64,000 nucleotides of DNA, from NCBI GenBank assembly GCA_964598205.1, contig CAZRBB010000003.1:115186-179185 (forward strand), in the 5' to 3' direction. The notes beneath the pieces are model-generated. The model did no database searches and had not been told where the DNA came from. It saw nothing but the letters and a program-made list of their open reading frames with translations. Of the stretch, positions 8,619 through 63,567 are shown piece after piece; the first letter of the stretch is position 1; each line of letters begins with the position of its first letter. The position numbers were made by a program, and so were the translations under genes. Source of the DNA: an uncultured Candidatus Saccharibacteria bacterium. GTDB lineage: Bacteria > Patescibacteriota > Minisyncoccia > CAIUEV01 > JAHKAQ01.

Positions 8619-8642
8619 AACCGCCTTTTGAGCGGTTTTTGT
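8619..8642 (+). terminator. Rho-independent terminator
   Basis: aaccgc-cttttga-gcggtt followed by tttttgtt. Confidence 0.55.
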
Positions 8643-8651
8643 TATGAAAAA

Positions 8652-8770
8652 AGCACTTTCGCACTCGGCACATTTCTTTGTTAAAATCTTCGTCGTTTGC
8701 TTACCGTAACTTAATTACGCTTGGCTTGCTTCCTTGGTTTTGTTTCGAACTGTGCCAAATGTGAAAGTAC
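8652..8770 (+). repeat. Dispersed TIR repeat family, copy A (diverged termini gcactttcgcac / gtgaaagtac, still mutually complementary)
   Basis: Shares the core cacatttctttgttaaaa...ccgtaac(t)taattacg...ggttttg..tcgaact with copies C and G. Confidence 0.8.
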
Positions 8771-8861
8771 TTAAGAGGCGATGCTTTGCTTGGTTTATAT
8801 TTAAACAAGTAAGCGCTGAAGAATTTAAGAAAATTTTTAGATAATAATAATATTTTTTCCA

Positions 8862-10100
8862 ATGTTTAACACAGGTTACAGAACAGGTACTGATAGTCGT
8901 CGTTCATCTTCTCGCCCGGGGTCTTCTTTTAGAGGAGCCAGAACAGGTTCTTCTTTTAGGGGCGGCGGTCGTTCTCGCTTTGGTCGGGCCAGAAAGGCGC
9001 CACGGTTTTTTGATCCGTCTCTTTTAACTCGCAAGGCTCAGGTTACAAAATCTGAGATATATGTTCCTAAGCATGTATTTGCCGATTTTGATTTGGCGCC
9101 AGAATTAAAAAAGAACATTGAACACAAAGGATACGAAAAACCAACGCCAATTCAGGATCAAGTAATTCCGCTTTTAATTCAAGGTAAAGATGTGATTGGC
9201 TTGGCCAACACTGGTACCGGAAAAACGGTGGCTTTTTTACTGCCATTGATCAACAAAGTTTTAAATAATAGAAATCAAAAATCATTAATTATTGCTCCAA
9301 CCAGAGAACTGGCCGTGCAAATAGACGAAGAATTGCGGTCTTTGGTGCACAATCTGCGGATTTATTCCACGGTTTGTATTGGTGGAGTTTCTTTGGGTAG
9401 GCAAATGAGCGAACTTAGAAGAGGTCCTAATTTTACCATTGGTACCCCGGGAAGATTAAAGGATTTAGCCCAAAGACGAGCGATTAATTTTAAAGAATAC
9501 CGATCAATCGTATTAGACGAAGTGGACCGAATGTTAGACATGGGATTTTTGCCAGAAATGCAAAAAATTGTTGAAAGCTTGGCTTTTCCTAGGCAATCGC
9601 TGTTTTTTTCGGCAACCTTGCCAGAAAAAACAAAAGTAATTACCAAGGATTTCCTAAAGGATCCGGTTTTTGTTTCGGTAGGAACTAAAGTGGCGGCGGA
9701 AAATGTGGATCAAGATGTAGTGCGGGTTCGTGGAGCGGTCAAGATTGACTTGCTTCATGATCTACTTTTAAAGGAAGGTTTTGACAAAGTGCTTATTTTT
9801 GGCCGGACCAAATGGGGAATAGAAAAGCTAACCGAGGATCTTTCCGTAAGAGGATTCAAGGTATCTTCTATTCATGGAAATAAAAATCAGAGTCAACGGC
9901 AAAGAGCTTTGGCACAATTCAAAGAAGGTAGAATTCAAGCGCTTTTGGCTACAGATATTGCTTCTAGAGGCTTGGATATTAGCGATGTGACTCATGTGAT
10001 TAACTATGAATTGCCAGAATCTTACGAAGATTATATTCATCGAATTGGAAGAACTGGTCGGATTGGTAAAAAAGGAACGGCACTTTCTTTTATAGATTAA
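8862..10100 (+). CDS. DEAD-box ATP-dependent RNA helicase with an N-terminal Arg/Gly/Ser-rich tail
   Basis: Q-motif, ANTGTGKT, DEVD, SAT, HRIGRTGR. Confidence 0.9.
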   Translation: MFNTGYRTGTDSRRSSSRPGSSFRGARTGSSFRGGGRSRFGRARKAPRFFDPSLLTRKAQVTKSEIYVPKHVFADFDLAPELKKNIEHKGYEKPTPIQDQVIPLLIQGKDVIGLANTGTGKTVAFLLPLINKVLNNRNQKSLIIAPTRELAVQIDEELRSLVHNLRIYSTVCIGGVSLGRQMSELRRGPNFTIGTPGRLKDLAQRRAINFKEYRSIVLDEVDRMLDMGFLPEMQKIVESLAFPRQSLFFSATLPEKTKVITKDFLKDPVFVSVGTKVAAENVDQDVVRVRGAVKIDLLHDLLLKEGFDKVLIFGRTKWGIEKLTEDLSVRGFKVSSIHGNKNQSQRQRALAQFKEGRIQALLATDIASRGLDISDVTHVINYELPESYEDYIHRIGRTGRIGKKGTALSFID

Positions 10101-18572: not shown

Positions 18573-18661
18573 GGTGGTTTTTAAAAATTAAATGATGGGC
18601 ACTTGAGTCTGTTATTTTATTGCAAAATCAAGGGGTAGGCAATTATTGAACGGTAAGGTAA

Positions 18662-19399
18662 TTATTTTTTAATCAGTTTTTTTAAAGAAGGACCAAAGAC
18701 TAAAGAGCCTAACAATAAAAAAGAAATTAAAAAAATAAAAATCAGGAAATTAAATTCAAAAAGGGAAGCGCCTAAGAGTACATAAAAAATAGTTCCGGGA
18801 ATAATTCCTAGGGCAGTAGCAAAAAAATAATCACGAAAACTGATTTTAAAAAGTCCTAAAGAAAAATTAAGAGGGGCAAAGGGGAGGAAGGTGAGTAACC
18901 TTAGAACGACAATGGTTTTAAAGCTGTCTTTTTCTAGTCTTATTTTATAAGGGTTAATTTTTTTTAATTGTTTTTGGAATAGTTTGTTCAACCAGGTGGA
19001 TCCTAGATATTTAGCAACGCCAAAAGAAATGATTGCTCCTAAAAGTGCTCCTGTAAAAGTCCAAAGAAGGCCACCGAGAGTACCAAAAAGAGCAACAGCG
19101 GAAAGACTTAGCGGGTAAACTGGAACAAATAGAATAGAAACAAAAGCGAATAATAAAACAAAAAAGAGTGGTGCCAAAAAACCAAACTCAGTTATTCTTT
19201 CTTTTAGATTAAGGCTTTCTTGCCAGTTGGTTTGGGAGAGAAAAAAAGAAAAGATTCCTAAAATAAAAATGAGCAGAATGAAAAGAAATATTCTAACGGA
19301 GCTATGATTAGTGGAAAGCTTGGACATATAAATCAAAAACTTCTTAATCGGAACTGTTCTTGGTAGTATTGAAAATGCTGGGTGTCTCTTTTCCCCCAT
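18662..19399 (-). CDS. DedA/TVP38 (VTT domain) family membrane protein
   Basis: Polytopic membrane protein, 245 aa, with a VTT-like core. Confidence 0.55.
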   Translation of the reverse strand: MGEKRHPAFSILPRTVPIKKFLIYMSKLSTNHSSVRIFLFILLIFILGIFSFFLSQTNWQESLNLKERITEFGFLAPLFFVLLFAFVSILFVPVYPLSLSAVALFGTLGGLLWTFTGALLGAIISFGVAKYLGSTWLNKLFQKQLKKINPYKIRLEKDSFKTIVVLRLLTFLPFAPLNFSLGLFKISFRDYFFATALGIIPGTIFYVLLGASLFEFNFLIFIFLISFLLLGSLVFGPSLKKLIKK

Positions 19400-26404: not shown

Positions 26405-26508
26405 ATTCTGCTAGGATTCATCTTTTTTCTTGGTGGGCAAGGTTTTTACGACTTATTCATTTGTATTTTTGTTCCTTAAATTCTGTATGATACAATATCT
26501 GTACCGTT

Positions 26509-26604
26509 CGCTTACCGTAATCTAATTACGCCCCGCCTCGGACGGCGGGTATGCTCACTTACTTCTCCGGCTTTGCCTTGAACTATAACCAAATGTGTAA
26601 GTCC
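26509..26604 (+). repeat. Dispersed TIR repeat family, copy B (5'-truncated; carries the GC-hairpin insert ccgcctcggacggcggg)
   Basis: cgcttaccgtaatctaattacgcc...ggctttgccttgaactataaccaaatgtgtaagtcc. Confidence 0.8.
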
Positions 26605-26634
26605 TAATTTTCATAAAATAATTAAAATAAAATT

Positions 26635-28223: not shown

Positions 28224-29054
28224 ATGACCAGAGAAAGGCTAACTATTACACTAAAAAAAGATATCATCGGTTTTTTGGATCGTTTTGTAGATGGGGCACG
28301 GATTAGAAACCGTTCTCATGCCATAGAATATATTTTGGCTAAGCATTTTTTACCGGAATCGGTTAAGGTGTTGATTCTAACAGGGGGAGAGGGGATAAAG
28401 TTGCGACCAATAACTTACGAAATTCCTAAAGCATTGATCCCGATTCATAATCGACCGCTTTTGGAATACACGCTGGAATTTTTAGCTAAGGCGAATTTAA
28501 AAGACTTAATTTTTGCGACTGGTCACTTGGGAGAAAAAATAGAAGCTCACTTTTTAGATGGGACTCGGTTTGGAGTAAAAATAAGTTATTCCAGAGAGAA
28601 AGAAAAAAATTCAGGAACAGTAGTGCCGCTTTTAGAAGCGCGTTCTCAATTGGAAGGTGGGACTTTTTTGGTAGTTTATGGCGATGTTCTAGCTGATATT
28701 GATTACTTGGATCTTTTAGAGTTTCATAAAAAAAATAAGGGATTGGCAACGGTGGCTTTGACTTCGGTAGATCGACCGGCGGAATGGGGAGTAGCAAGTT
28801 TGCAGGGTAATCGGATTACGCAGTTCGAAGAGAAACCAAAAACTAAAGTTTCTTCTCACTTGATTAATGCTGGGGTTTATGTTTTTGATTCGCGGATTTT
28901 TGATTATTTGAGCCCAGACCAGCGAAGTTTGTCTGGGGATGTTTTCCCTCTTTTGGCTCAAAAAGGTGAATTGTTGGGATATTCTTTTTTTGGTCGGTGG
29001 CACGATGTTGGTTCGCCACGGGCCTATACTCAGGCGCTTAAGGAATGGCGGTAA
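28224..29054 (+). CDS. Fusion protein: N-terminal ribbon-helix-helix (CopG/Arc/MetJ-like) domain plus a sugar-1-phosphate nucleotidyltransferase (RmlA/GalU/GlgC-like NTP_transferase)
   Basis: Residues ~4-42 RLTITLKKDIIGFLDRFVDGARIRNRSHAIEYILAKH fit the RHH beta-alphaA-G-x-(S/N)-alphaB pattern. They are followed by LILTGGEGIKLRPITYEIPKALIPI, the G-rich NDP-sugar pyrophosphorylase motif. Confidence 0.7.
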   Translation: MTRERLTITLKKDIIGFLDRFVDGARIRNRSHAIEYILAKHFLPESVKVLILTGGEGIKLRPITYEIPKALIPIHNRPLLEYTLEFLAKANLKDLIFATGHLGEKIEAHFLDGTRFGVKISYSREKEKNSGTVVPLLEARSQLEGGTFLVVYGDVLADIDYLDLLEFHKKNKGLATVALTSVDRPAEWGVASLQGNRITQFEEKPKTKVSSHLINAGVYVFDSRIFDYLSPDQRSLSGDVFPLLAQKGELLGYSFFGRWHDVGSPRAYTQALKEWR

Positions 29055-29413
29055 TTCAATTACGAATAAAGAATAAAGAATTACGAATAAAATTAGAATT
29101 GAGAGTTTTAAATTATTTTGGAATTCAGAATTAACAAGAAGGGATTCTTCGCTTCGCTCAGTATGACAAAAATAATTTGTAATTTAGAATTAAAAATTTA
29201 TTCGAAATTCAAAACTCGAAATTAAGAATTATATGTCTTGGTAAATTTGACAGTACAAAAAAAAGGCTTATGATAAAGCCATAAATTATTCAATGATTTT
29301 AAGACAAACCACAATCTGTTCCGCAGTAAAAAAGGCAGGGTCTACCCCAGCCGGTTTTGGTTTGTTCTTAAGAAGTAACGGATGATCTAAGGAAAAAATC
29401 TAAGAGCAAACCA

Positions 29414-32365: not shown

Positions 32366-32501
32366 AAAGTGAATTTACTGGTTTGTTTAAAAAAATGGAA
32401 GAGGGTGTTTTTTTATATTGATCTAGTTATTAAAATAAAAGTTTGAGCTTTGGAAAGAGTTGTTGTATATTAAAGAAGAAATTTAACCATTAACAAAAAA
32501 A

Positions 32502-32735
32502 ATGGGTCTTAAAGAACTCTTGCAAAAATGGGGTCTAATGAAAAAAGATGAATCAGTGGAAGGTGGAGAAGTGCAAAGCAACAACGAAGAAGAAGTTGCT
32601 ACACCAACAGAGACCGAAGAAGACTCAGAGGTAACAGTGGTGGACGATGATTCGGAAACCGAAACAGAAGAAGCCCCTGTTTCAACAGAGATGCCTACCA
32701 AAGAAACAGACGAAACAGACGAAACAAACAATTAA
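32502..32735 (+). CDS. Small acidic protein (77 aa, E/D/T-rich tail); hypothetical
   Basis: Complete ORF followed by a strong terminator. Confidence 0.45.
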   Translation: MGLKELLQKWGLMKKDESVEGGEVQSNNEEEVATPTETEEDSEVTVVDDDSETETEEAPVSTEMPTKETDETDETNN

Positions 32736-32754
32736 AACTGTTTTTTCAAGTCAA

Positions 32755-32780
32755 AAAGCGCGCCACTGGCGCGCTTTTTG
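32755..32780 (+). terminator. Rho-independent terminator
   Basis: agcgcgcc-actg-ggcgcgct + TTTTT. Confidence 0.8.
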
Positions 32781-32790
32781 ATATTTAAAT

Positions 32791-32932
32791 GGACTTACGC
32801 GTAGCCGCATATTTCTTTGTTAAAACCTGCGCCACTCGCTCACCGTAACCTAATTACGTCCCGCCTCGGACGGCGGGCATGCTCGCTCGCTTGCTCGGTT
32901 TTGCCTCGAACTATACTCAAACGCGTAAGTCC
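32791..32932 (+). repeat. Dispersed TIR repeat family, copy C (full length, 142 bp, 12-bp perfect TIR ggacttacgcgt/acgcgtaagtcc, with GC-hairpin insert)
   Basis: Reference copy. Convergent intergenic region between the small acidic ORF and zupT. Confidence 0.85.
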
Positions 32933-32947
32933 TAATTTTTAAGAGAA

Positions 32948-41781: not shown

Positions 41782-41786
41782 GGGAG

Positions 41787-41854
41787 GGCTTATGCGGTTG
41801 GCACATTTCTTCGTTAAAACCTCCGTCGCTTGCTCACCATAATCTAATTACGCC
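41787..41854 (+). repeat. Dispersed TIR repeat family, copy D (3'-truncated)
   Basis: ggcttatgcggttggcacatttcttcgttaaaacctccgtcgcttgctcaccataatctaattacgcc. Confidence 0.75.
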
Positions 41855-42762
41855 AAAGTTTCTTTGGTTACTTCTTTTTTATTTATCTTAAAAAGGCCGA
41901 CTAATCTCCCTAGCCAAAAAATAATTTCCATTAAAAGGAAGAAGGGGAGTTCAAAAAGAAAGGCAACGGTTTTTAAAGTTAAAAACAAACCAAGGGCTAA
42001 GCCAAAAGCGGAAAGAGGGTTTGTTTTTTCTAAGGAATTTAAATAATCTTCTATTTTTTGATTAATAATTTGGTTAAATATTTCTGAAATTTTTAGTTGG
42101 GGATCAAGCTCCATTTTCCAAGATTTTTCTAAAGTAGCGAGATATTTATTTACTTCTAGGGCAGAAGGTTCTTGGGAGGACTCTTCTTTTAATGATTTAG
42201 AAATTGCTTGTTCTAAGGAAAGCGAAGAATCATAGCCGATTACTCCTAATTGGGAGAAGCTTTTGGTTTTTTTCAGAATAAAATCGGTAGTTTTTTGGGT
42301 TAAGGCTAAGCGAAGCGGTGGAAGGTGTTTGTTTTCGTGTTTTTTCGTTAGCTCAGAAAAGTAGAGACCGGATCCAGCAAGGAAAAGAGATGTGGTAATT
42401 AGAGAATAGCTTACCAAAAGGGTGGCACTGACCTTTATTTTAACGGAATTTTTAAGATGTCTTTTTGTTTTCTGGGCTCCAGCAGCAAAAAAGATAATAG
42501 CCAAAATTAAGGCGATAGAGGAAATAAGGCCAAAGCTGATAATTAATATAGGAAGGAAACTTAGGACAGAAATAAAAAGGGCAAAGCGGAAAGAAAGAAA
42601 AATTACCCAAAAAATAGCGATCAGGAAAATAAGAAAATAACCAAGAAGGGAAGCCCAGCTAAAACGCTGCCCTTTAAGGAATGAAAAGGCACAGAACCAA
42701 CCGGCTCCGGAGCCAAAGAGAGCAGCTAAAGAAAAAAACCAAAGACTAAGCTTGTTGGTCAT
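41848..42762 (-). CDS. Hypothetical polytopic membrane protein
   Basis: 304-aa ORF with multiple TM segments; overlaps the next gene. Confidence 0.5.
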   Translation of the reverse strand: MTNKLSLWFFSLAALFGSGAGWFCAFSFLKGQRFSWASLLGYFLIFLIAIFWVIFLSFRFALFISVLSFLPILIISFGLISSIALILAIIFFAAGAQKTKRHLKNSVKIKVSATLLVSYSLITTSLFLAGSGLYFSELTKKHENKHLPPLRLALTQKTTDFILKKTKSFSQLGVIGYDSSLSLEQAISKSLKEESSQEPSALEVNKYLATLEKSWKMELDPQLKISEIFNQIINQKIEDYLNSLEKTNPLSAFGLALGLFLTLKTVAFLFELPFFLLMEIIFWLGRLVGLFKINKKEVTKETLA

Positions 42763-43328: not shown

Positions 43329-43357
43329 ATTATTATAAGGATTTACGCGTAGCCGCA
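43329..43357 (+). repeat. Dispersed TIR repeat family, fragment E (left end only)
   Basis: ggatttacgcgtagccgcatatttcttt. Confidence 0.6.
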
Positions 43358-43470
43358 TATTTCTTTCTCATCTTACATTTTTGGAGATAAAATTTCAATC
43401 AATTGAGTTCTCTCGGTACAACGACTTGTTTCTCTTTTGTTAGAAAGTATAGAATGAAGAAAATATTACT

Positions 43471-45973: not shown

Positions 45974-46026
45974 GGATTCTTGCCCCTCTTGGCGGGTCTA
46001 TGCTAGAATAGACCGACAGGAGCAGG

Positions 46027-46097
46027 AGAATTACGAATTACGAATTACGAATTACGAATTACGAATTACGAATTACGAATTAGTTAATTAGTTAATA
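46027..46097 (+). repeat. Tandem heptamer (GAATTAC)x8 followed by (TTAGTTAA)x2
   Basis: Read directly in the sequence, between tRNA-Leu and hup. Confidence 0.9.
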
Positions 46098-46106
46098 AAA
46101 ACAGTA

Positions 46107-46376: not shown

Positions 46377-46405
46377 ACAACTATTCCGGTTCATTTTTAG
46401 GTAAA

Positions 46406-46437
46406 ACACCGCGGAATTATTCTGCGGTGTTTTTTTG
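46406..46437 (+). terminator. Rho-independent terminator after hup
   Basis: acaccgc-ggaattattct-gcggtgt + TTTTTTT. Confidence 0.75.
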
Positions 46438-46470
46438 ACAGAGAGAGTGTTTTTTTGGTTAAATGAGTTA

Positions 46471-46560
46471 GAACTTACACGCTTGGCACATTTCTTTATT
46501 AAAACCTGCGTCACTCGCTTACTCGGTTTTGCCTAGAACTGTGCTCAAGCGTGTAAGTCC
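46471..46560 (+). repeat. Dispersed TIR repeat family, copy F (internally deleted; 15-bp perfect TIR acttacacgcttg.../...caagcgtgtaagt)
   Basis: gaacttacacgcttggcacatttctttattaaaacctgcgtcactcgcttactcggttttgcctagaactgtgctcaagcgtgtaagtcc. Confidence 0.8.
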
Positions 46561-46584
46561 TATAAGTTTAAACTAAATAAAAAA

Positions 46585-53096: not shown

Positions 53097-53100
53097 TTTT

Positions 53101-53126
53101 AGAACTTATGCGCCTGGCGTAGTCCT
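53101..53126 (+). repeat. Dispersed TIR repeat family, minimal ends-only copy H
   Basis: gaacttatgcgcc|tggcgtagtcctaa, i.e. left-end and right-end motifs joined. Confidence 0.5.
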
Positions 53127-53130
53127 AAAA

Positions 53131-58713: not shown

Positions 58714-58941
58714 ATGAATCGTGGACAAAAAGTAATTATTTTTTTAATTTCGTTTTACCAAAAAACGCTTTCGCCGGATCATAGTTGGATTAAGGTATTT
58801 TTTCCTTTTGGAGTTTGCAGATTTCATCCTACTTGTAGCGACTATACAAAAGATAAAGTAACTCGATTGGGTGCTCTCCGTGGTCTTTTTTTGGGTTTTA
58901 AAAGGATTCTTAAATGCCATCCTTTTTATAAGCCTCGCTAG
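58714..58941 (+). CDS. yidD: Membrane protein insertion efficiency factor YidD
   Basis: CRFHPTCSDY motif. Confidence 0.8.
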   Translation: MNRGQKVIIFLISFYQKTLSPDHSWIKVFFPFGVCRFHPTCSDYTKDKVTRLGALRGLFLGFKRILKCHPFYKPR

Positions 58942-58964
58942 CACTCTATCTTGACGAGTGCTAA
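58938..58964 (+). promoter_or_regulatory. CIRCE operator (HrcA binding site) upstream of hrcA
   Basis: cTAGCACTC-tatcttgac-GAGTGCTAA against consensus TTAGCACTC-N9-GAGTGCTAA. Confidence 0.85.
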
Positions 58965-58994: not shown

Positions 58995-59762
58995 TTGGCA
59001 ATGCTTACCACCCGTCAGGAAAAAATTTTAGAATGTGTTGTTAAGGAATATACCCGTACTGCACAGTCGGTAGGATCAAAGAACCTTTTAAATCGATACA
59101 AGTTTGGTGTGTCTCCGGCAACAATGAGAGCGGAAATGTTTGAGCTAGAAAGATTGGGATATTTATATCATCCACACACTTCTTCGGGGAGAATTCCAAC
59201 AGACAAGGGTTATCGTTTCTTTGTGGCTTCTTTAATGAAAGATAAAGAACTTTCCCGGAAGGACCAGATATCTCTCCAAGAGGAGCTTTGGAAGTTAAGA
59301 GCCAAAAGCAATCGAATGGCGCGAACAGCGGCAAAGATGTTGTCTGTTCTAAGTCATAATTTGGCAATTTCTGGAGTGGTAGAAGAAGAGGAATACTTTC
59401 AATCGGGAATTAAGGAATTACTTTCTCAGCCAGAGTTTACAGATATCGATGGAATTTGCCGTATAGTAGAAGTGTTGGATTATTTAGATCAGAATATAGC
59501 CGATCTCTTGGTTGATTTAAAGCAGGGAGAGGTTAAGGCCTTGATTGGTAAAGAGAATCCATTAGTAAAGGGCGAGCAGTGTTCTATCGTGGTGGCTCGT
59601 TGTCGGTTGCCAGAGGGAGAAACTGGCATAATTGCAATCATGGGACCTAAAAGAATGGAATATGCAAAGAATATTTCTTTGGTGCGTTATGTTTCAGAAG
59701 TCTTGGAAGGAAGGGCAGAATTAAGCGGACCGTTGTCAATTAAAACAGAGGACAACAGCTGA
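58995..59762 (+). CDS. hrcA: Heat-inducible transcription repressor HrcA (short form)
   Basis: LTTRQEKIL...VGSKNL...SPATMRAEMFELERLGYLYHPHTSSGRIPTDKGYRFFV. Confidence 0.8.
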   Translation: MAMLTTRQEKILECVVKEYTRTAQSVGSKNLLNRYKFGVSPATMRAEMFELERLGYLYHPHTSSGRIPTDKGYRFFVASLMKDKELSRKDQISLQEELWKLRAKSNRMARTAAKMLSVLSHNLAISGVVEEEEYFQSGIKELLSQPEFTDIDGICRIVEVLDYLDQNIADLLVDLKQGEVKALIGKENPLVKGEQCSIVVARCRLPEGETGIIAIMGPKRMEYAKNISLVRYVSEVLEGRAELSGPLSIKTEDNS

Positions 59763-59776
59763 TTCTAAATTATTAT

Positions 59777-59895
59777 GACTTACGCGTAGCCACATATTTT
59801 TTCGTTAAAATCTGTGCCATTCACTCACCGTAACCTAATTATGCCTTACTTGCTTTTCCGGTTTTGCCTTGAACTATAATCAAACGCGTAAGTCC
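59777..59895 (+). repeat. Dispersed TIR repeat family, copy G (full length without GC insert) between hrcA and grpE
   Basis: gacttacgcgtagccacatattttttcgttaaaatctgtgccattcactcaccgtaacctaattatgcc...ggttttgccttgaactataatcaaacgcgtaagtcc. Confidence 0.85.
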
Positions 59896-59912
59896 TAATA
59901 ATATTAAAGATT

Positions 59913-60467
59913 ATGTGGAATAAAAAGAAGAAAAAAGAAACAACTAAAGCACCAGAGTTAAAGGAGCTCAAAAAAGAAAAGAAAGCAGAAAAAATAGTAG
60001 AGGAGAAGGCAGGGGAAGCGGTAAAAGAGGAGGTGCTTAGGGAACAAGAGGATTACTTGGCTGGCTGGCAAAGGTGCAAGGCTGACTTTGAGAATTATCA
60101 AAAAAAAGTTTCCCAATTGTTGTTTGATTCCCAGCAGAAAACAAAGGAGCGCTTAATTACAGAAGTGATCGGGGTTTTGGACAATTTTAATTTGGCGGTG
60201 GGGTATATTCCAAAGGATCAAATGAAAGAAGGCTGGGTGATTGGAGTAATCTACATTAAAAAGCAGTTAGAGGATTTTTTAAAGAAAGAAGAAGTAGAGG
60301 AAATTTTGATTTTAGGAGAAGATTTTAATCCGGAATTTGCCGAATGTTTAGAAGAACTCCCTGAATCGGGTAAAGATAATAAAGGTAAAGTAATGGAGAT
60401 TATTCAAAATGGGTATCGTTTAAATGGGAGAGTAATTAGAGCAGCCAAGGTTAAAATAGGTGGTTAA
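59913..60467 (+). CDS. grpE: Nucleotide exchange factor GrpE
   Basis: K/E-rich N-terminus, DFENYQKK, and GrpE C-terminal beta domain. Confidence 0.85.
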   Translation: MWNKKKKKETTKAPELKELKKEKKAEKIVEEKAGEAVKEEVLREQEDYLAGWQRCKADFENYQKKVSQLLFDSQQKTKERLITEVIGVLDNFNLAVGYIPKDQMKEGWVIGVIYIKKQLEDFLKKEEVEEILILGEDFNPEFAECLEELPESGKDNKGKVMEIIQNGYRLNGRVIRAAKVKIGG

Positions 60468-60531
60468 ACAGAAACCGATTCTTAAATAATTTTTAAGAAT
60501 CAATTTCTTTTTAATTAATAATCAAAAAAAG

Positions 60532-62478
60532 ATGAGTAAGATATTAGGCATTGATCTTGGCACTACTAACTCCTGCATGTCGGTAATGGAGGGAGATAAG
60601 CCAGTAGTATTAGAAAACAAAGAGGGCAATCGAACGCTGCCTTCTATGGTGGCGTTGAGCAAGTCAAAGGAAAGATTAGTGGGTCTTTTGGCTAAAAGAC
60701 AAGCGGTAACTAATTCCGCGAACACTATTTTTTCGGCTAAACGATTGATTGGTCGAAAATTTTCGGACGCTGAGGTTCAAAGAGACAAAAAGCTTTTGCC
60801 TTATGAAATTAGAGAAGGAGCGGATGGCTCAGTAGAAATTAAACTGGGAGAAGAATGGAAAAAGCCAACAGAAATTGCGGCAATGATTCTTCAGAAAATG
60901 AAAGTTGACGCCGAAGAAAAGCTGGGAGAAGAAATTAAAAAGGCAGTAATTACTGTGCCGGCTTATTTTGACGACTCTCAAAGAAAGGCAACTAAGGATG
61001 CTGGGAAAATTGCTGGGCTGGAAGTGGAACGAATTATTAACGAACCAACAGCAGCTGCCCTGGCCTATGGTTTTGACAAGCTTAAAGATGAGCAGATTGC
61101 TGTCTACGATTTAGGTGGCGGTACTTTTGATATTTCTATTTTGGAAGTAGGAACAGGCGAGGAAAAATCTATAGAAGTAAAATCCACCAACGGTGATACT
61201 CATTTAGGAGGAGATGATTTTGATCAGAAGATTATGGACTGGATTGTGACTGAGTTTAAAAAAAGTGAAGGGATAGATCTTTCTAAAGACGGGATGGCAC
61301 TGCAAAGGATTAAGGAGGCGGCAGAAAAAGCCAAGATTGAACTTTCTACTGCAGAAGAAACAGAAATCAACCAACCTTTTATCACTACTAGTAATGAAGG
61401 GCCAAAGCATTTGGTTTTAAAAATGACTAGAGCTAAATTGGAAGAATTAGTAAGTGATCTAGTGGAGAAAACTTTAGAACCTTGCCGAAAGGCGGTGGCC
61501 GATTCTGGATTAAAGACTTCTGAAATAGAAGAGGTGATTCTAGTCGGTGGTCAAACACGGATGCCTTTTGTTCAAAAAAAGGTAGAGGAATTTTTTGGTA
61601 AAAAACCAAATGTCACCGTGAATCCAGACGAAGTAGTAGCAATGGGAGCGGCAATTCAAGGAGGTGTTCTAAGAGGAGATGTAAAAGATGTACTACTCTT
61701 AGATGTAACGCCTTTGACTTTAGGAATTGAAACATTGGGTGGTGTTCGCACTCCATTAATAGAAAAGAACACTACGATTCCAACTTCTAAGAATCAAATA
61801 TTTTCTACAGCGTCGGACAGTCAGCCTTCTGTAGAAATTCATGTTTTGCAAGGAGAGCGATCAATGGCATCAGACAATAAAACTTTAGGTCGATTTCATT
61901 TGGACGGCTTACCACCAGCTCCACGAGGTATTCCTCAAATAGAAGTAGTTTTTGATTTAGACGCGAACGGAATTTTAAATGTGAAAGCCAAAGATAAAGC
62001 GACCAACAAAGAACAGTCGATTAGAATTGAAGCCTCTGGTGGATTATCTAACGAAGAAATAGAGAGAATGAGAAAAGAAGCCGAAGTTCATGCTGAGGAA
62101 GACAAAAAGAAGAAAGAAAAAGTAGAAACACTCAATTTGGCGGATAGTCTTATTTTCACCACAGAAAAAACATTAGAAGAGGCAGGAGATAAAGTTTCCG
62201 AAGAAAATAAAAAACCAGTAACTGAAAAGATAGAAGAATTGAAAAAAATAAAGAACGGTGAAGACACGGAAGCAATCAAAAAAGCGGTGGAGGCTTTGAA
62301 TCAGGAAATTTCTAAAATAGGAAAAGAGCTTTACGAAGCGGCCCAAAAGGCGGAAGCGGAAAAAACGGCTGGTAGCGAAAAACCAAAAGAAGAAGGAAAG
62401 GTAGAAGACGCAGAAGTAGAAGAAAAAGATACAAAAAAGGAAGAACCAAAAGAGCCGGAGGTGGATTCAAAAGAATAA
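60532..62478 (+). CDS. dnaK: Chaperone DnaK (Hsp70)
   Basis: [29 protein letters not shown]; 648 aa. Confidence 0.95.
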
Positions 62479-62481
62479 TTT

Positions 62482-63567
62482 ATGGAAAAAGATTACTATC
62501 ATATTTTGGGGATTTCTAAAGATGCGAATGCGGCAGAGATTAAGAAAAGTTTCCGAAAATTAGCACATCAGCACCATCCCGACAAAAAAGGAGGAGATGC
62601 TGAAAAGTTCAAGGAAATCAACGAGGCGTATCAGGTACTTTCCAGTCCAGAAAAAAGAGCCCAGTATGATCGATTTGGCTCTGGCTCTTTTTCTGGTGGT
62701 GGAGGTGGGAGAGGTGGTTTTGAGGGATTTTCTGGCGGTGGTGCCGGTGATTTTGGTTTTGATTTTTCTTCTGGAAATTTTTCGGATATTTTTTCTGATT
62801 TTTTTTCAGGGTTTCAAGGAGAAGAGGAAGTGGGTGGCCGTCAGGGAGCGGATGTTGGAGTAGACTTAGAGATTACTTTTTTGGAAATGGCCACCGGAGC
62901 GGAAAAAGAATTGGAGATTTTTAAAGGAATGATTTGCTCTTCTTGCGGTGGATCGGGAGCGGAAAAAGGTAGTGGATTTAAAGATTGCTCTTCTTGCGGT
63001 GGATCAGGGAAAATAAGAACAGAGCGAAGAACAATTCTAGGGTCTATTGCTCAGGTGATTATTTGCCCAGAATGTAAGGGGAAGGGGAAAATTCCCGCCA
63101 AACCCTGTTCTTCTTGCCGAGGAAAAGGAATTCAAAAAGGAAAAGATAGAATTAAAATTACCGTTCCTGCTGGGATTAAAGATGGTCAAACTCTGAGTAT
63201 TAGCGGGAGAGGAGAGCCAGGGGAATCGGGAGGAAGAGCTGGCGACCTCTATGTTAATATTCATGTTAAGCCGCATCCGTTTTGGGAAAGAAAGGGTGAC
63301 GACATTTATTATCAGGCGGAAATTCCTTTTTCTTTAGCGGTACTGGGAGGAAAAATAGAAGTGCCGACTCTTTTTTCTAAAGTTAAAATAAAAATTTCTT
63401 CGGGAACACCGAATGCTAAAATTTTTAGGCTTAGAGGAGAGGGAGTTAAGCGCCTTTCTAATTACGGTTCTGGTGACTTGTTTGTTAAAATAAAGGTAGA
63501 GGTGCCAAATCGCTTGACTTTTGGTCAAAAAAAACTGATAAAAGAGCTCAAGGAAAAAGGTTTATAG
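62482..63567 (+). CDS. dnaJ: Chaperone DnaJ
   Basis: J-domain with HPD, a G/F-rich region, and CxxCxGxG zinc repeats. Confidence 0.9.
   Translation: MEKDYYHILGISKDANAAEIKKSFRKLAHQHHPDKKGGDAEKFKEINEAYQVLSSPEKRAQYDRFGSGSFSGGGGGRGGFEGFSGGGAGDFGFDFSSGNFSDIFSDFFSGFQGEEEVGGRQGADVGVDLEITFLEMATGAEKELEIFKGMICSSCGGSGAEKGSGFKDCSSCGGSGKIRTERRTILGSIAQVIICPECKGKGKIPAKPCSSCRGKGIQKGKDRIKITVPAGIKDGQTLSISGRGEPGESGGRAGDLYVNIHVKPHPFWERKGDDIYYQAEIPFSLAVLGGKIEVPTLFSKVKIKISSGTPNAKIFRLRGEGVKRLSNYGSGDLFVKIKVEVPNRLTFGQKKLIKELKEKGL

What the first reader, a model, noticed from the sequence alone, without database searches (positions are those of the whole stretch)
59777..59895. All repeat copies share one orientation and most sit in 3' UTR position of plus-strand genes, including inside the hrcA-grpE-dnaK operon
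Every copy is in the same orientation on the plus strand. Seven of eight lie immediately downstream of a plus-strand gene: obg, the mutarotase-like gene, the acidic ORF, the exonuclease, hup, rplU and hrcA. Copy G sits between hrcA and grpE, inside the conserved heat-shock operon that the CIRCE site at 58938 controls. There it must be transcribed in sense without terminating. Strict co-orientation with transcription suggests a function at the RNA level, such as 3' UTR stabiliser, attenuator or processing site, or strand-specific insertion.
Basis: partly seen in the sequence, partly recalled or inferred. Interest (0 to 1): 0.6.

Follow-up and report, generated by a model that had tools for sequence, protein, structure and literature searches.

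The report
Same-direction hairpin repeats in a Moranbacterium
The window holds eight copies or remnants of a roughly 125-base hairpin-forming repeat that all point the same way, most likely a small mobile element whose direction follows DNA replication rather than a purpose-built RNA regulator, and a relative carries a copy inside its RNase P RNA gene.

Summary
The window (Candidatus Moranbacteria, Patescibacteria) has eight members of one repeat family, all on the + strand. They are five full hairpins of 97-163 nt, two 5' fragments and one 31-nt remnant that keeps only the termini. One full copy (59773-59899) fills the hrcA-grpE spacer downstream of a CIRCE site.

- Pairing is kept by compensatory changes: 90.5% of cells paired, and 17 of 31 pairs changed on both sides.
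- The + strand is also the G-rich replication strand across the whole window, so direction of transcription and direction of replication cannot be separated here.
- Three copies lie beyond intrinsic terminators of the upstream gene.
- One copy (32788-32936) should be transcribed antisense, as the 3' UTR of a ZIP transporter gene.
- Eight relatives, including one with 88% HrcA identity, have a hrcA-grpE spacer of only 7-86 nt with no element.
- Fragments and deletion derivatives are common.

One relative with a 1.2 Mb contig carries a divergent subfamily with the same polarity. Its copies sit in the same operon, inside another copy, and in the P3 loop of RNase P RNA.

Best reading: a REPIN- or MITE-like mobile hairpin whose polarity is tied to replication. 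RNA-level effects are probably secondary. It is a new member of a known kind and of moderate interest.

The parts
59773..59899 (+). Full copy (the flagged one), 127 nt, between the hrcA stop codon (59762) and the grpE start (59913). Termini TTATGACTTACGCGT...ACGCGTAAGTCCTAA.
   Evidence: nhmmer 116.5 bits; CM 111.3 bits on + against 17 on -; fold z = -3.8; no Rfam match at E<=1.
8650..8774 (+). Full copy, 144 nt after the obg stop codon, 8 nt after the T run of the obg terminator, and 87 nt before a DEAD-box helicase gene.
   Evidence: (110.8 bits).
26446..26608 (+). Full-length copy with a degenerate 5' interior and an extra GC-rich hairpin module (CCCGCCTCGGACGGCGGG). Lies between the DUF4432 gene and an alpha-amylase-family gene.
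   Evidence: (45.8 bits).
32788..32936 (+). Full copy with the same extra GC hairpin. Lies between a bidirectional terminator and the stop codon of the minus-strand ZIP gene (32948), so it is probably transcribed antisense.
   Evidence: 104.2 bits; I12.
41783..41862 (+). 5' half only. Starts 1 nt after the stop codon of the PolB-type exonuclease gene and overlaps the 3' end of the convergent gene 41848-42762.
   Evidence: (49.9 bits).
43336..43368 (+). 5' terminal fragment of about 30 nt in a divergent spacer, upstream of the mgsA/rarA-like gene.
   Evidence: (family D7).
46468..46564 (+). Centre-deleted copy of 97 nt. The apical hairpin and one of two CTCGCT direct repeats are missing. It lies after the hup terminator and 20 nt before a beta-helix gene.
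   Evidence: z = -7.2; 83 bits.
53100..53130 (+). Remnant that keeps only the two termini (TAGAACTTATGCGCC/TGGCGTAGTCCTAAAA). It fills the 34-nt spacer between rplU and recR, and its flanks extend the palindrome by 9 bp.
58929..58955 (+). CIRCE operator (CTAGCACTC-N9-GAGTGCTAA) upstream of hrcA. Context only.
   Evidence: Sequence read.
59001..63567 (+). hrcA-grpE-dnaK-dnaJ operon that contains the flagged copy. Context only.
   Evidence: Pfam; called genes.
8619..8645 (+). Intrinsic terminator of obg, between obg and copy 8650.
   Evidence: fold.
32751..32781 (.). Bidirectional terminator: a perfect 15-nt palindrome flanked by A5 and T5. It precedes copy 32788 on the + strand and follows it for the ZIP transcript.
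   Evidence: I12; fold -24.7 and -23.2 kcal/mol.
46403..46440 (+). hup terminator (hairpin followed by T7), between hup and copy 46468.
   Evidence: I21; fold -20.3 kcal/mol.

Best explanation
The repeats are a lineage-restricted family of non-autonomous mobile hairpin elements, similar in kind to REPINs and MITEs. Each copy is one long imperfect palindrome with termini TTAGGAyTTAyrCG...CGyrTAArTCCTAA, a short apical hairpin flanked by CTCGCT motifs, and a pyrimidine-rich top strand.

Inference: the uniform direction is set by replication rather than transcription. Either the element inserts through a strand-specific single-stranded-DNA step at the fork, as IS200/IS605 and REP-associated (RAYT) systems do, or copies survive better in one orientation because the two strands form hairpins of unequal stability. 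In either case the pyrimidine-rich strand ends up on the G-rich strand. Most genes are on that strand too, so the copies appear co-oriented with genes.

Copies persist only where they do little harm: in spacers at gene ends, in loops of existing hairpins, and inside other copies. The hairpin is not followed by a U tract. A copy inside an operon such as hrcA-grpE is therefore expected to be read through and simply adds a stable stem-loop to the mRNA. That stem-loop may incidentally act as a processing or stability site.

Shown: family membership, polarity, hairpin covariation, decay forms, absence at orthologous sites, and insertion in an RNA gene. Inferred: mobility, the single-stranded or replication-linked mechanism, and read-through.
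For: 1. Polarity follows the replication strand wherever it can be tested. The window + strand has GC skew +0.14 to +0.24 throughout, and the L102 + strand +0.09 to +0.22. All 14 detected copies have the same strand on the G-rich strand. This includes three copies in convergent spacers and one inside an RNA gene, where RNA folding would not care about orientation.
2. Copy 32788-32936 is placed to be transcribed antisense, and three copies lie after terminators. Sense transcription is therefore not a common property of the copies.
3. Signs of mobility and decay.
   - The hrcA-grpE spacer is 7-86 nt and element-free in eight relatives, including one with 88% HrcA identity.
   - The family is present in only 2 of 10 lineages sampled.
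   - There are 5' fragments, a centre-deleted copy and a termini-only remnant.
4. Pairing is kept by compensatory changes: 90.5% paired against 77% in shuffles and 27-43% when partners are slid, and 17 of 31 pairs changed on both sides. Watson-Crick to Watson-Crick swaps dominate, with 37 cells changed on both sides against 7 G-U cells. Compensatory changes are also described as common in REPINs (PMC3116915).
5. Insertion into hairpin loops.
   - L102 copy 18686-18812 sits in the P3 loop of RNase P RNA.
   - L102 copy 9746-9871 sits at the apex of an outer, divergent copy.
   - The flanks of window copies 53100 and 59773 extend the palindrome.
6. The element's top strand is C-rich (skew -0.10 to -0.29) against a G-rich background, and the opposite strand folds better in 9 of 9 copies under both RNA and DNA parameters. 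This is a real strand asymmetry on which a strand-specific process could act.
7. Replication-linked orientation bias is established for single-strand transposition (PMC5027513).
Against: - No transposase of any kind (Y1/HUH, DDE) appears in the roughly 100 kb available (Pfam labels).
- No target-site duplication or empty-site alignment could be obtained.
- No copy was found next to minus-strand genes only, so the replication and transcription readings are not cleanly separated. Both sampled regions are on gene-rich leading strands.
- The asymmetry of the hairpin and the conserved unpaired CTCGCT motifs could equally be read as an RNA or protein-binding feature.
- The genome-wide test could not be run. 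Pattern scans of public collections returned only chance hits.
Confidence: 0.5

Rival explanations
1. This is the first reader's main idea: an RNA-level cis element. The sense transcript forms a stem-loop that protects upstream mRNA from 3' exonucleases, or is cut by RNase III to uncouple cistrons. Copies in the sense orientation are retained by selection and antisense copies are purged.
For: - 4 of 5 full window copies and 3 of 4 full L102 copies lie between tandem co-oriented genes.
- Several start 1-10 nt after a stop codon and end 9-41 nt before the next start codon.
- Copies lie inside the hrcA-grpE-dnaK-dnaJ operon in two lineages and in sense within RNase P RNA.
- No U tract follows the hairpin in the operon copy, so read-through is plausible.
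- Strong pairing covariation.
- The sense strand is pyrimidine-rich and so lacks Shine-Dalgarno-like purine runs, which could be why sense copies are tolerated.
Against: - The antisense strand folds better in 9 of 9 copies.
- G-U intermediates are rare.
- Three copies follow terminators, and one is placed for antisense transcription.
- All three copies in convergent spacers are +.
- There are no minus-oriented copies after the 24 minus-strand genes.
- Decayed fragments are frequent.
- The site is empty in eight relatives.
Confidence: 0.25
2. Insertion has no polarity and the bias arises by differential survival. The two strands form hairpins of unequal stability. Copies that place the more stable, purine-rich hairpin on the lagging-strand template are deleted by replication slippage, so only one orientation remains.
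For: - The stability asymmetry is consistent between strands: 2-8 kcal/mol with DNA parameters and up to 17 kcal/mol with RNA parameters, in 9 of 9 copies.
- The weaker strand is always on the G-rich strand, which is the lagging-strand template.
- Deletion derivatives exist that keep the palindrome symmetric, including one bounded by CTCGCT direct repeats.
Against: - The energy differences under DNA parameters are modest.
- No decaying opposite-orientation copies were seen, although the model would expect them.
- The nine copies share ancestry, so the asymmetry is one family trait and not nine independent observations.
Confidence: 0.15
3. A promoter-carrying element. The conserved block TTTGTTAAAAT in the 5' arm acts as an extended -10 promoter that drives the downstream co-oriented gene.
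For: - A promoter-like hit lies inside copy 8650 (TTCGCA-18-TAAAAT, preceded by TG).
- This block is the best conserved stretch of the window-type copies.
- Four full copies end 13-87 nt before a + gene.
Against: - Three of the five copies with the block have TAAAAC, which loses the key final T.
- The L102 subfamily lacks the block altogether.
- Promoter-like hits are at chance level in all scans.
Confidence: 0.05
4. Independent small-RNA genes or a known structured RNA family.
For: Stable, covarying structure.
Against: - No Rfam family matches at gathering threshold or at E<=1.
- There are no consistent promoter or terminator signals.
- Many copies are truncated.
- Copies abut or overlap stop codons.
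Confidence: 0.03

Closest known systems
REPINs (REP doublets forming hairpins), mobilised by RAYT Y1 transposases; Pseudomonas and enterobacteria (PMC3116915, PMC3333891)
   Same: A dispersed extragenic repeat of about 100 nt that folds as one long hairpin. Compensatory changes across the stem are common. Half-elements occur as decay products. A single-stranded intermediate at the fork is the proposed route.
   Different: No recognisable REP units or GTAG tetranucleotide common to all copies. No RAYT gene in the DNA available. Strict single polarity is not a described REPIN trait. The host is a Patescibacterium.
IS200/IS605 family and their miniature derivatives (single-strand 'peel and paste' transposition, PMC5027513)
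   Same: Orientation of genomic copies is biased relative to the replication fork. Hairpins are the recognised feature. No target duplication is expected.
   Different: Those elements have two separate subterminal hairpins and no terminal inverted repeat. Here the whole element is one palindrome. No TnpA was found.
Correia/NEMIS elements of Neisseria and ERIC/IRU of enterobacteria (from my own knowledge, not tested here)
   Same: Intergenic palindromic repeats of 100-155 nt. They are often co-transcribed with flanking genes and affect mRNA processing by RNase III or RNase E.
   Different: No sequence similarity. Those occur in both orientations. Correia elements have 26-bp terminal repeats and a TA duplication.
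Rickettsia palindromic elements (from my own knowledge)
   Same: Palindromic repeats tolerated inside functional genes, including RNA genes.
   Different: Those elements typically insert in frame into protein-coding genes. No in-gene protein insertion was seen here.
Helix expansions of RNase P RNA in the Candidate Phyla Radiation (PMC8172020)
   Same: That paper reports large extensions of helices that defeat the standard covariance model. cmscan misplaced the 5' end of the L102 RNase P RNA in the same way.
   Different: That paper does not attribute the extensions to a dispersed repeat. Here the P3 extension is a bona fide copy of the repeat family (114 bits).

Membership tests
REPIN/RAYT system | Long hairpin made of two inverted repeat units, with pairing conserved | tested here: met
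   Folds. 90.5% of cells paired and 17 of 31 pairs changed on both sides.
REPIN/RAYT system | Each arm is a REP unit (a short palindrome with a conserved 5' GTAG-type tetranucleotide) | tested here: not met
   GTAG occurs only in three window copies (CGCGTAGCC). Other copies and the L102 subfamily have CGCTTGG or CGCGTTTGG at that position. The arms are not themselves palindromic units.
REPIN/RAYT system | A cognate single-copy RAYT gene (Y1_Tnp, PF01797) in the same genome | not testable with these tools
   None among the called genes of about 90 kb of the window genome and 20 kb of L102 or in my own scans. The rest of both genomes could not be fetched.
Classical MITE | Terminal inverted repeats | tested here: met
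   11-19 bp terminal complementarity.
Classical MITE | Target-site duplication and a related autonomous insertion sequence | tested here: inconclusive
   The flanking TA/TAA is part of the palindrome and cannot be separated from a duplication. The empty sites in relatives are too diverged to align. No insertion sequence was seen.
IS200/IS605-derived miniature elements | Uniform orientation relative to the replication fork | tested here: met
   14 of 14 copies have the same strand on the G-rich strand.
IS200/IS605-derived miniature elements | Distinct left and right subterminal hairpins with a conserved cleavage tetranucleotide at the target | tested here: not met
   Single palindrome architecture. 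The 5' flanks share no tetranucleotide.
Intrinsic terminator | GC-rich hairpin followed directly by a U tract | tested here: not met
   The 3' flank of copy 59773 is TAATAATATTAAAG. No terminator-like site was found at copies 46468, 53100 or 59773. Only copy 32788 has a T5 run, 3 nt after the stem.
Any Rfam RNA family | Covariance-model match | tested here: not met
   The whole window at gathering threshold gives only RNase P RNA and three tRNAs. The element region at E<=1 gives nothing.
Integron attC site | Imperfect palindrome bounded by RYYYAAC and GTTRRRY core sites, at the 3' end of promoterless cassettes | tested here: not met
   The termini are GGACTTACGCG and CGCGTAAGTCC, with no GTTRRRY. 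The neighbours are core housekeeping genes that are syntenic in relatives.

The most novel reading that the evidence does not exclude
The family is a mobile element that targets hairpin loops and acts on single-stranded DNA. It spreads with fixed polarity at the replication fork and lands preferentially in the loops of existing stem-loops: the ends of terminator-like palindromes, the apex of its own copies, and helices of structural RNAs. On this reading it would be one concrete source of the unexplained helix expansions in RNase P RNA of the Candidate Phyla Radiation, and possibly in their rRNAs. It would also be a recurrent remodeller of the heat-shock operon.
Probability: 0.2. Interest if true: 0.65.

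Novelty: new member of a known kind. Interest (0 to 1): 0.42.

Why it matters
Patescibacteria have tiny, tightly packed genomes, and dispersed repeats in them are hardly described. My two literature searches on Patescibacteria and the Candidate Phyla Radiation found no account of this family.

This family reaches about one copy per 4-9 kb. It sits inside an essential stress operon in two lineages and inside RNase P RNA in one. It therefore affects gene annotation and RNA-gene detection: the Rfam model misplaced the 5' end of the L102 RNase P RNA. Short contigs here may also break at repeats.

If polarity proves to be tied to replication, the family gives a clean natural case for studying single-strand mobile DNA in an uncultured phylum. 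It would also offer a mechanism for helix expansion in structural RNAs.

Tried and rejected
- Pattern scan of GTDB species genomes with the 5' block CAYATTTYTTYRTTAAAAYCT: 84 hits, all chance by nhmmer.
- The same block in the metagenome collection: 3 chance hits.
- Two scans of viral contigs: chance palindromes only.
- Obg homologue search: too conserved to surface the genome that carries the family.
- A concatenated five-protein query: the word filter collapsed, one irrelevant hit, and the last protein search was wasted.
- HU look-up, in the hope of finding strains without the element: it returned the same species only.
- G-U versus A-C counts in the stems as a test for the selected strand: roughly equal (about 6-8 against 5-9, read), so uninformative.
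- Absence from minus-minus spacers as a test: only 13 such spacers totalling 523 bp, so uninformative.
- Rejected readings: intrinsic terminator, integron attC, known Rfam RNA, and a coding ORF on either strand of the element. No gene was called in any element-bearing spacer.
- The 82-aa minus-strand ORF at 32483-32731 looks like an antisense shadow of the acidic + ORF.

Full report
**What is there**

The window has 39% G+C. Names given to HrcA homologues place it in Candidatus Moranbacteria, Patescibacteria. The same sequence occurs in JGI metagenome 3300044991 and several Logan assemblies.

A direct-repeat survey, an nhmmer profile and a covariance model all recover one family, and only on the + strand.
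- Full copies: 8650-8774, 26446-26608, 32788-32936, 46468-46564 and 59773-59899.
- 5' fragments: 41783-41862 and 43336-43368.
- A 31-nt remnant at 53100-53130 keeps just the two termini.
- A ninth member, a 5' fragment, lies about 2 kb left of the window in the same polarity (L106 12962-12993).

When the same loci are read on the opposite strand they score 17-58 bits, against 83-130 bits on the + strand for the well-preserved full copies (45.8 bits for the degenerate copy at 26446-26608), so the orientation call is robust. Rfam has no match at gathering threshold or at E<=1.

**Anatomy**

Each copy is one long imperfect palindrome.
- The termini read TTAGGAyTTAyrCG...CGyrTAArTCCTAA.
- An outer stem of 11-19 bp is followed by a small asymmetric internal loop and a middle stem.
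- A 5-6-bp apical hairpin is flanked on both sides by unpaired CTCGCT motifs.
- Two copies carry an extra GC-rich hairpin (CCCGCCTCGGACGGCGGG).
- One copy has lost the apical hairpin together with one CTCGCT repeat.

Across eight full copies from two genomes, 90.5% of cells pair. The figure is 77% in shuffles and 27-43% when the partners are slid. Seventeen of 31 pairs show changes on both sides, a count reached by none of 500 shuffles. Watson-Crick to Watson-Crick swaps dominate: 37 cells changed on both sides against 7 G-U cells.

The + strand of every copy is C-rich, with skew -0.10 to -0.29, although the surrounding genome is strongly G-rich. The complementary strand folds more stably in 9 of 9 copies under both RNA and DNA parameters.

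**Context in the window**

CIRCE is at 58929-58955, and the flagged copy fills the hrcA-grpE spacer, 10 nt after the hrcA stop codon and 13 nt before the grpE start. No U tract follows the hairpin, and no terminator-like site was found there. Read-through is therefore the expectation, although it is inferred and not shown.

'3' UTR position' is not a general property of the copies.
- The obg, acidic-ORF and hup genes each have a hairpin followed by a T run between the stop codon and the element.
- Copy 32788-32936 lies between the stop codon of the minus-strand ZIP gene and a bidirectional terminator. The ZIP transcript must cross it in antisense.
- By spacer class, the copies fall in 4 tandem ++, 3 convergent, 1 divergent and 0 tandem -- spacers. 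There are only 13 of the last class, totalling 523 bp, so their emptiness says little.

**The confound**

GC skew of the + strand is +0.14 to +0.24 in every 8-kb block, including the blocks of minus-strand genes. The + strand is therefore the G-rich leading-strand sequence, which is the lagging-strand template, across the whole window. Co-orientation with most genes and co-orientation with replication are the same thing here.

The three copies in convergent spacers, where either orientation would be a 3' UTR, are all +. This mildly favours the replication reading.

**Relatives**

I fetched the hrcA region of nine other lineages.

In eight of them the hrcA-grpE spacer is 7-86 nt, and no family member is detectable anywhere in the DNA fetched (0.9-21 kb per relative). 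These eight include the closest relative available, at 88% HrcA identity.

The ninth, L102, is a 1.2-Mb ENA contig with 63% HrcA identity. It carries a divergent subfamily with the same architecture, termini TAGGATTTACGCGTTTGGCG...CATCCAAACGCGTAAATCCTA, and fold energies of -43 to -65 kcal/mol. All of its copies are on the strand that is both gene-sense and G-rich.
- One lies in the hrcA leader downstream of CIRCE.
- A 5' fragment begins within the hrcA stop codon.
- One lies between grpE and dnaK.
- One lies between dnaJ and a NUDIX gene.
- One lies inside RNase P RNA.

The leader copy sits at the apex of an outer, more divergent hairpin that looks like an older copy. The whole 277-nt nested structure folds at -126 kcal/mol.

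The RNase P copy (18686-18812, 114 bits) occupies the loop of helix P3, between CTCAGTTTTCTC and AACGTGAAAACTGGGAGGAAAGTCCGG. Because of this insert and a second expansion, cmscan misplaces the 5' end of the gene. Large helix extensions in RNase P RNAs of the Candidate Phyla Radiation have been reported without an explanation (PMC8172020).

**Interpretation**

Five features fit a non-autonomous mobile hairpin element of the REPIN or MITE kind better than a conserved regulatory RNA:
- a patchy distribution across lineages;
- empty orthologous sites;
- abundant decay forms;
- nesting inside other copies and insertion into hairpin loops;
- stem covariation dominated by double changes.

Bertels and Rainey describe long hairpins, common compensatory changes and half-element remnants for REPINs (PMC3116915). 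Single-strand transposition by Y1 enzymes is known to produce orientation bias relative to the fork (PMC5027513).

I therefore put the replication-linked mobile-element reading first, at 0.5. Second is selection for sense orientation at the RNA level, at 0.25. Third is survival bias from unequal hairpin stability, at 0.15. The promoter and small-RNA ideas trail.

The weak points are that no transposase, target duplication or opposite-replichore sample is available.

**Limits**

The decisive genome-wide tabulation could not be done.
- My one genome scan and one metagenome scan used a pattern that was too subfamily-specific.
- Two of the three protein searches were unproductive.
- All twelve contig look-ups are spent.

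**Verdict**

This is a new member of a known kind. Interest is moderate, and most of it comes from the strict polarity and the insertion in RNase P RNA.

Noticed in passing
L102:18686-18812 (relative, ENA ERZ21869533 contig_5): A full copy of the repeat sits in the loop of helix P3 of the RNase P RNA gene, in sense. The gene spans roughly 18640-19346, about 700 nt, and the Rfam model misplaces its 5' end.
   Followed up: partly
L102:18842-18957: A second, unrelated hairpin expansion of about 115 nt (CTGAATTGTGGGTGT...ACACCCCCATAATTCAG) in the same RNase P RNA, just after the P4 5' strand. The window's RNase P RNA has only about 19 nt there.
   Followed up: no
L102:9684-9958: Nested hairpins in the hrcA leader, downstream of CIRCE (9622-9648). 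Copy 9746-9871 lies at the apex of an outer hairpin with a perfect 26-bp basal stem. Its arms resemble the family (AGGGATTTGTGTTTAG against AGGATTTACGCGTTTGG).
   Followed up: partly
window:58614-58702, 29053-29210, 46017-46099; L135:1900-2010: A second repeat type: tandem heptamers (GAATTAC) arranged as large AT-rich palindromes. One lies in the corA-yidD divergent spacer. Relative L135 has a palindromic array of a different heptamer (CGTAGTG/CCACTAC) at the same spacer.
   Followed up: no
window:59913-60467: GrpE is only 184 aa here. In the eight relatives whose grpE gene is complete in the fetched DNA it is 279-300 aa with an N-terminal NUDIX domain, and the 88% relative also begins with a NUDIX-like N-terminus. 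The MW start is shared, so the window lineage appears to have lost the NUDIX domain.
   Followed up: partly
window:1626-2417 (minus strand): An ABC-transporter ATPase is split into two ORFs, of 107 aa and 145 aa. Three independent assemblies call it the same way. It is a probable frameshift or pseudogene, or a genuine split gene.
   Followed up: no
window:1-64000: Very strong and uniform GC skew (+0.14 to +0.24 on the + strand), even across blocks of minus-strand genes. The repeat copies are the opposite: C-rich on the + strand, with skew -0.10 to -0.29.
   Followed up: yes
window:26531-26548 and 32860-32877: An optional GC-rich mini-hairpin module (CCCGCCTCGGACGGCGGG) is present in two of the copies, just 3' of the apical hairpin. 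It could be a nested insertion or a subfamily marker.
   Followed up: no
window:46468-46564: The short copy looks like a deletion between the two CTCGCT direct repeats that flank the apical hairpin in full copies. This is the pattern expected from replication slippage.
   Followed up: partly
L102:10721-10757; window:41781-41783; L102:15040-15046: Several copies abut or overlap the stop codon of the upstream gene. In L102 the TAG of hrcA and the TAA of dnaJ overlap the element's TTAGG/AAAGG terminus. Insertions may therefore have replaced the native gene ends.
   Followed up: no
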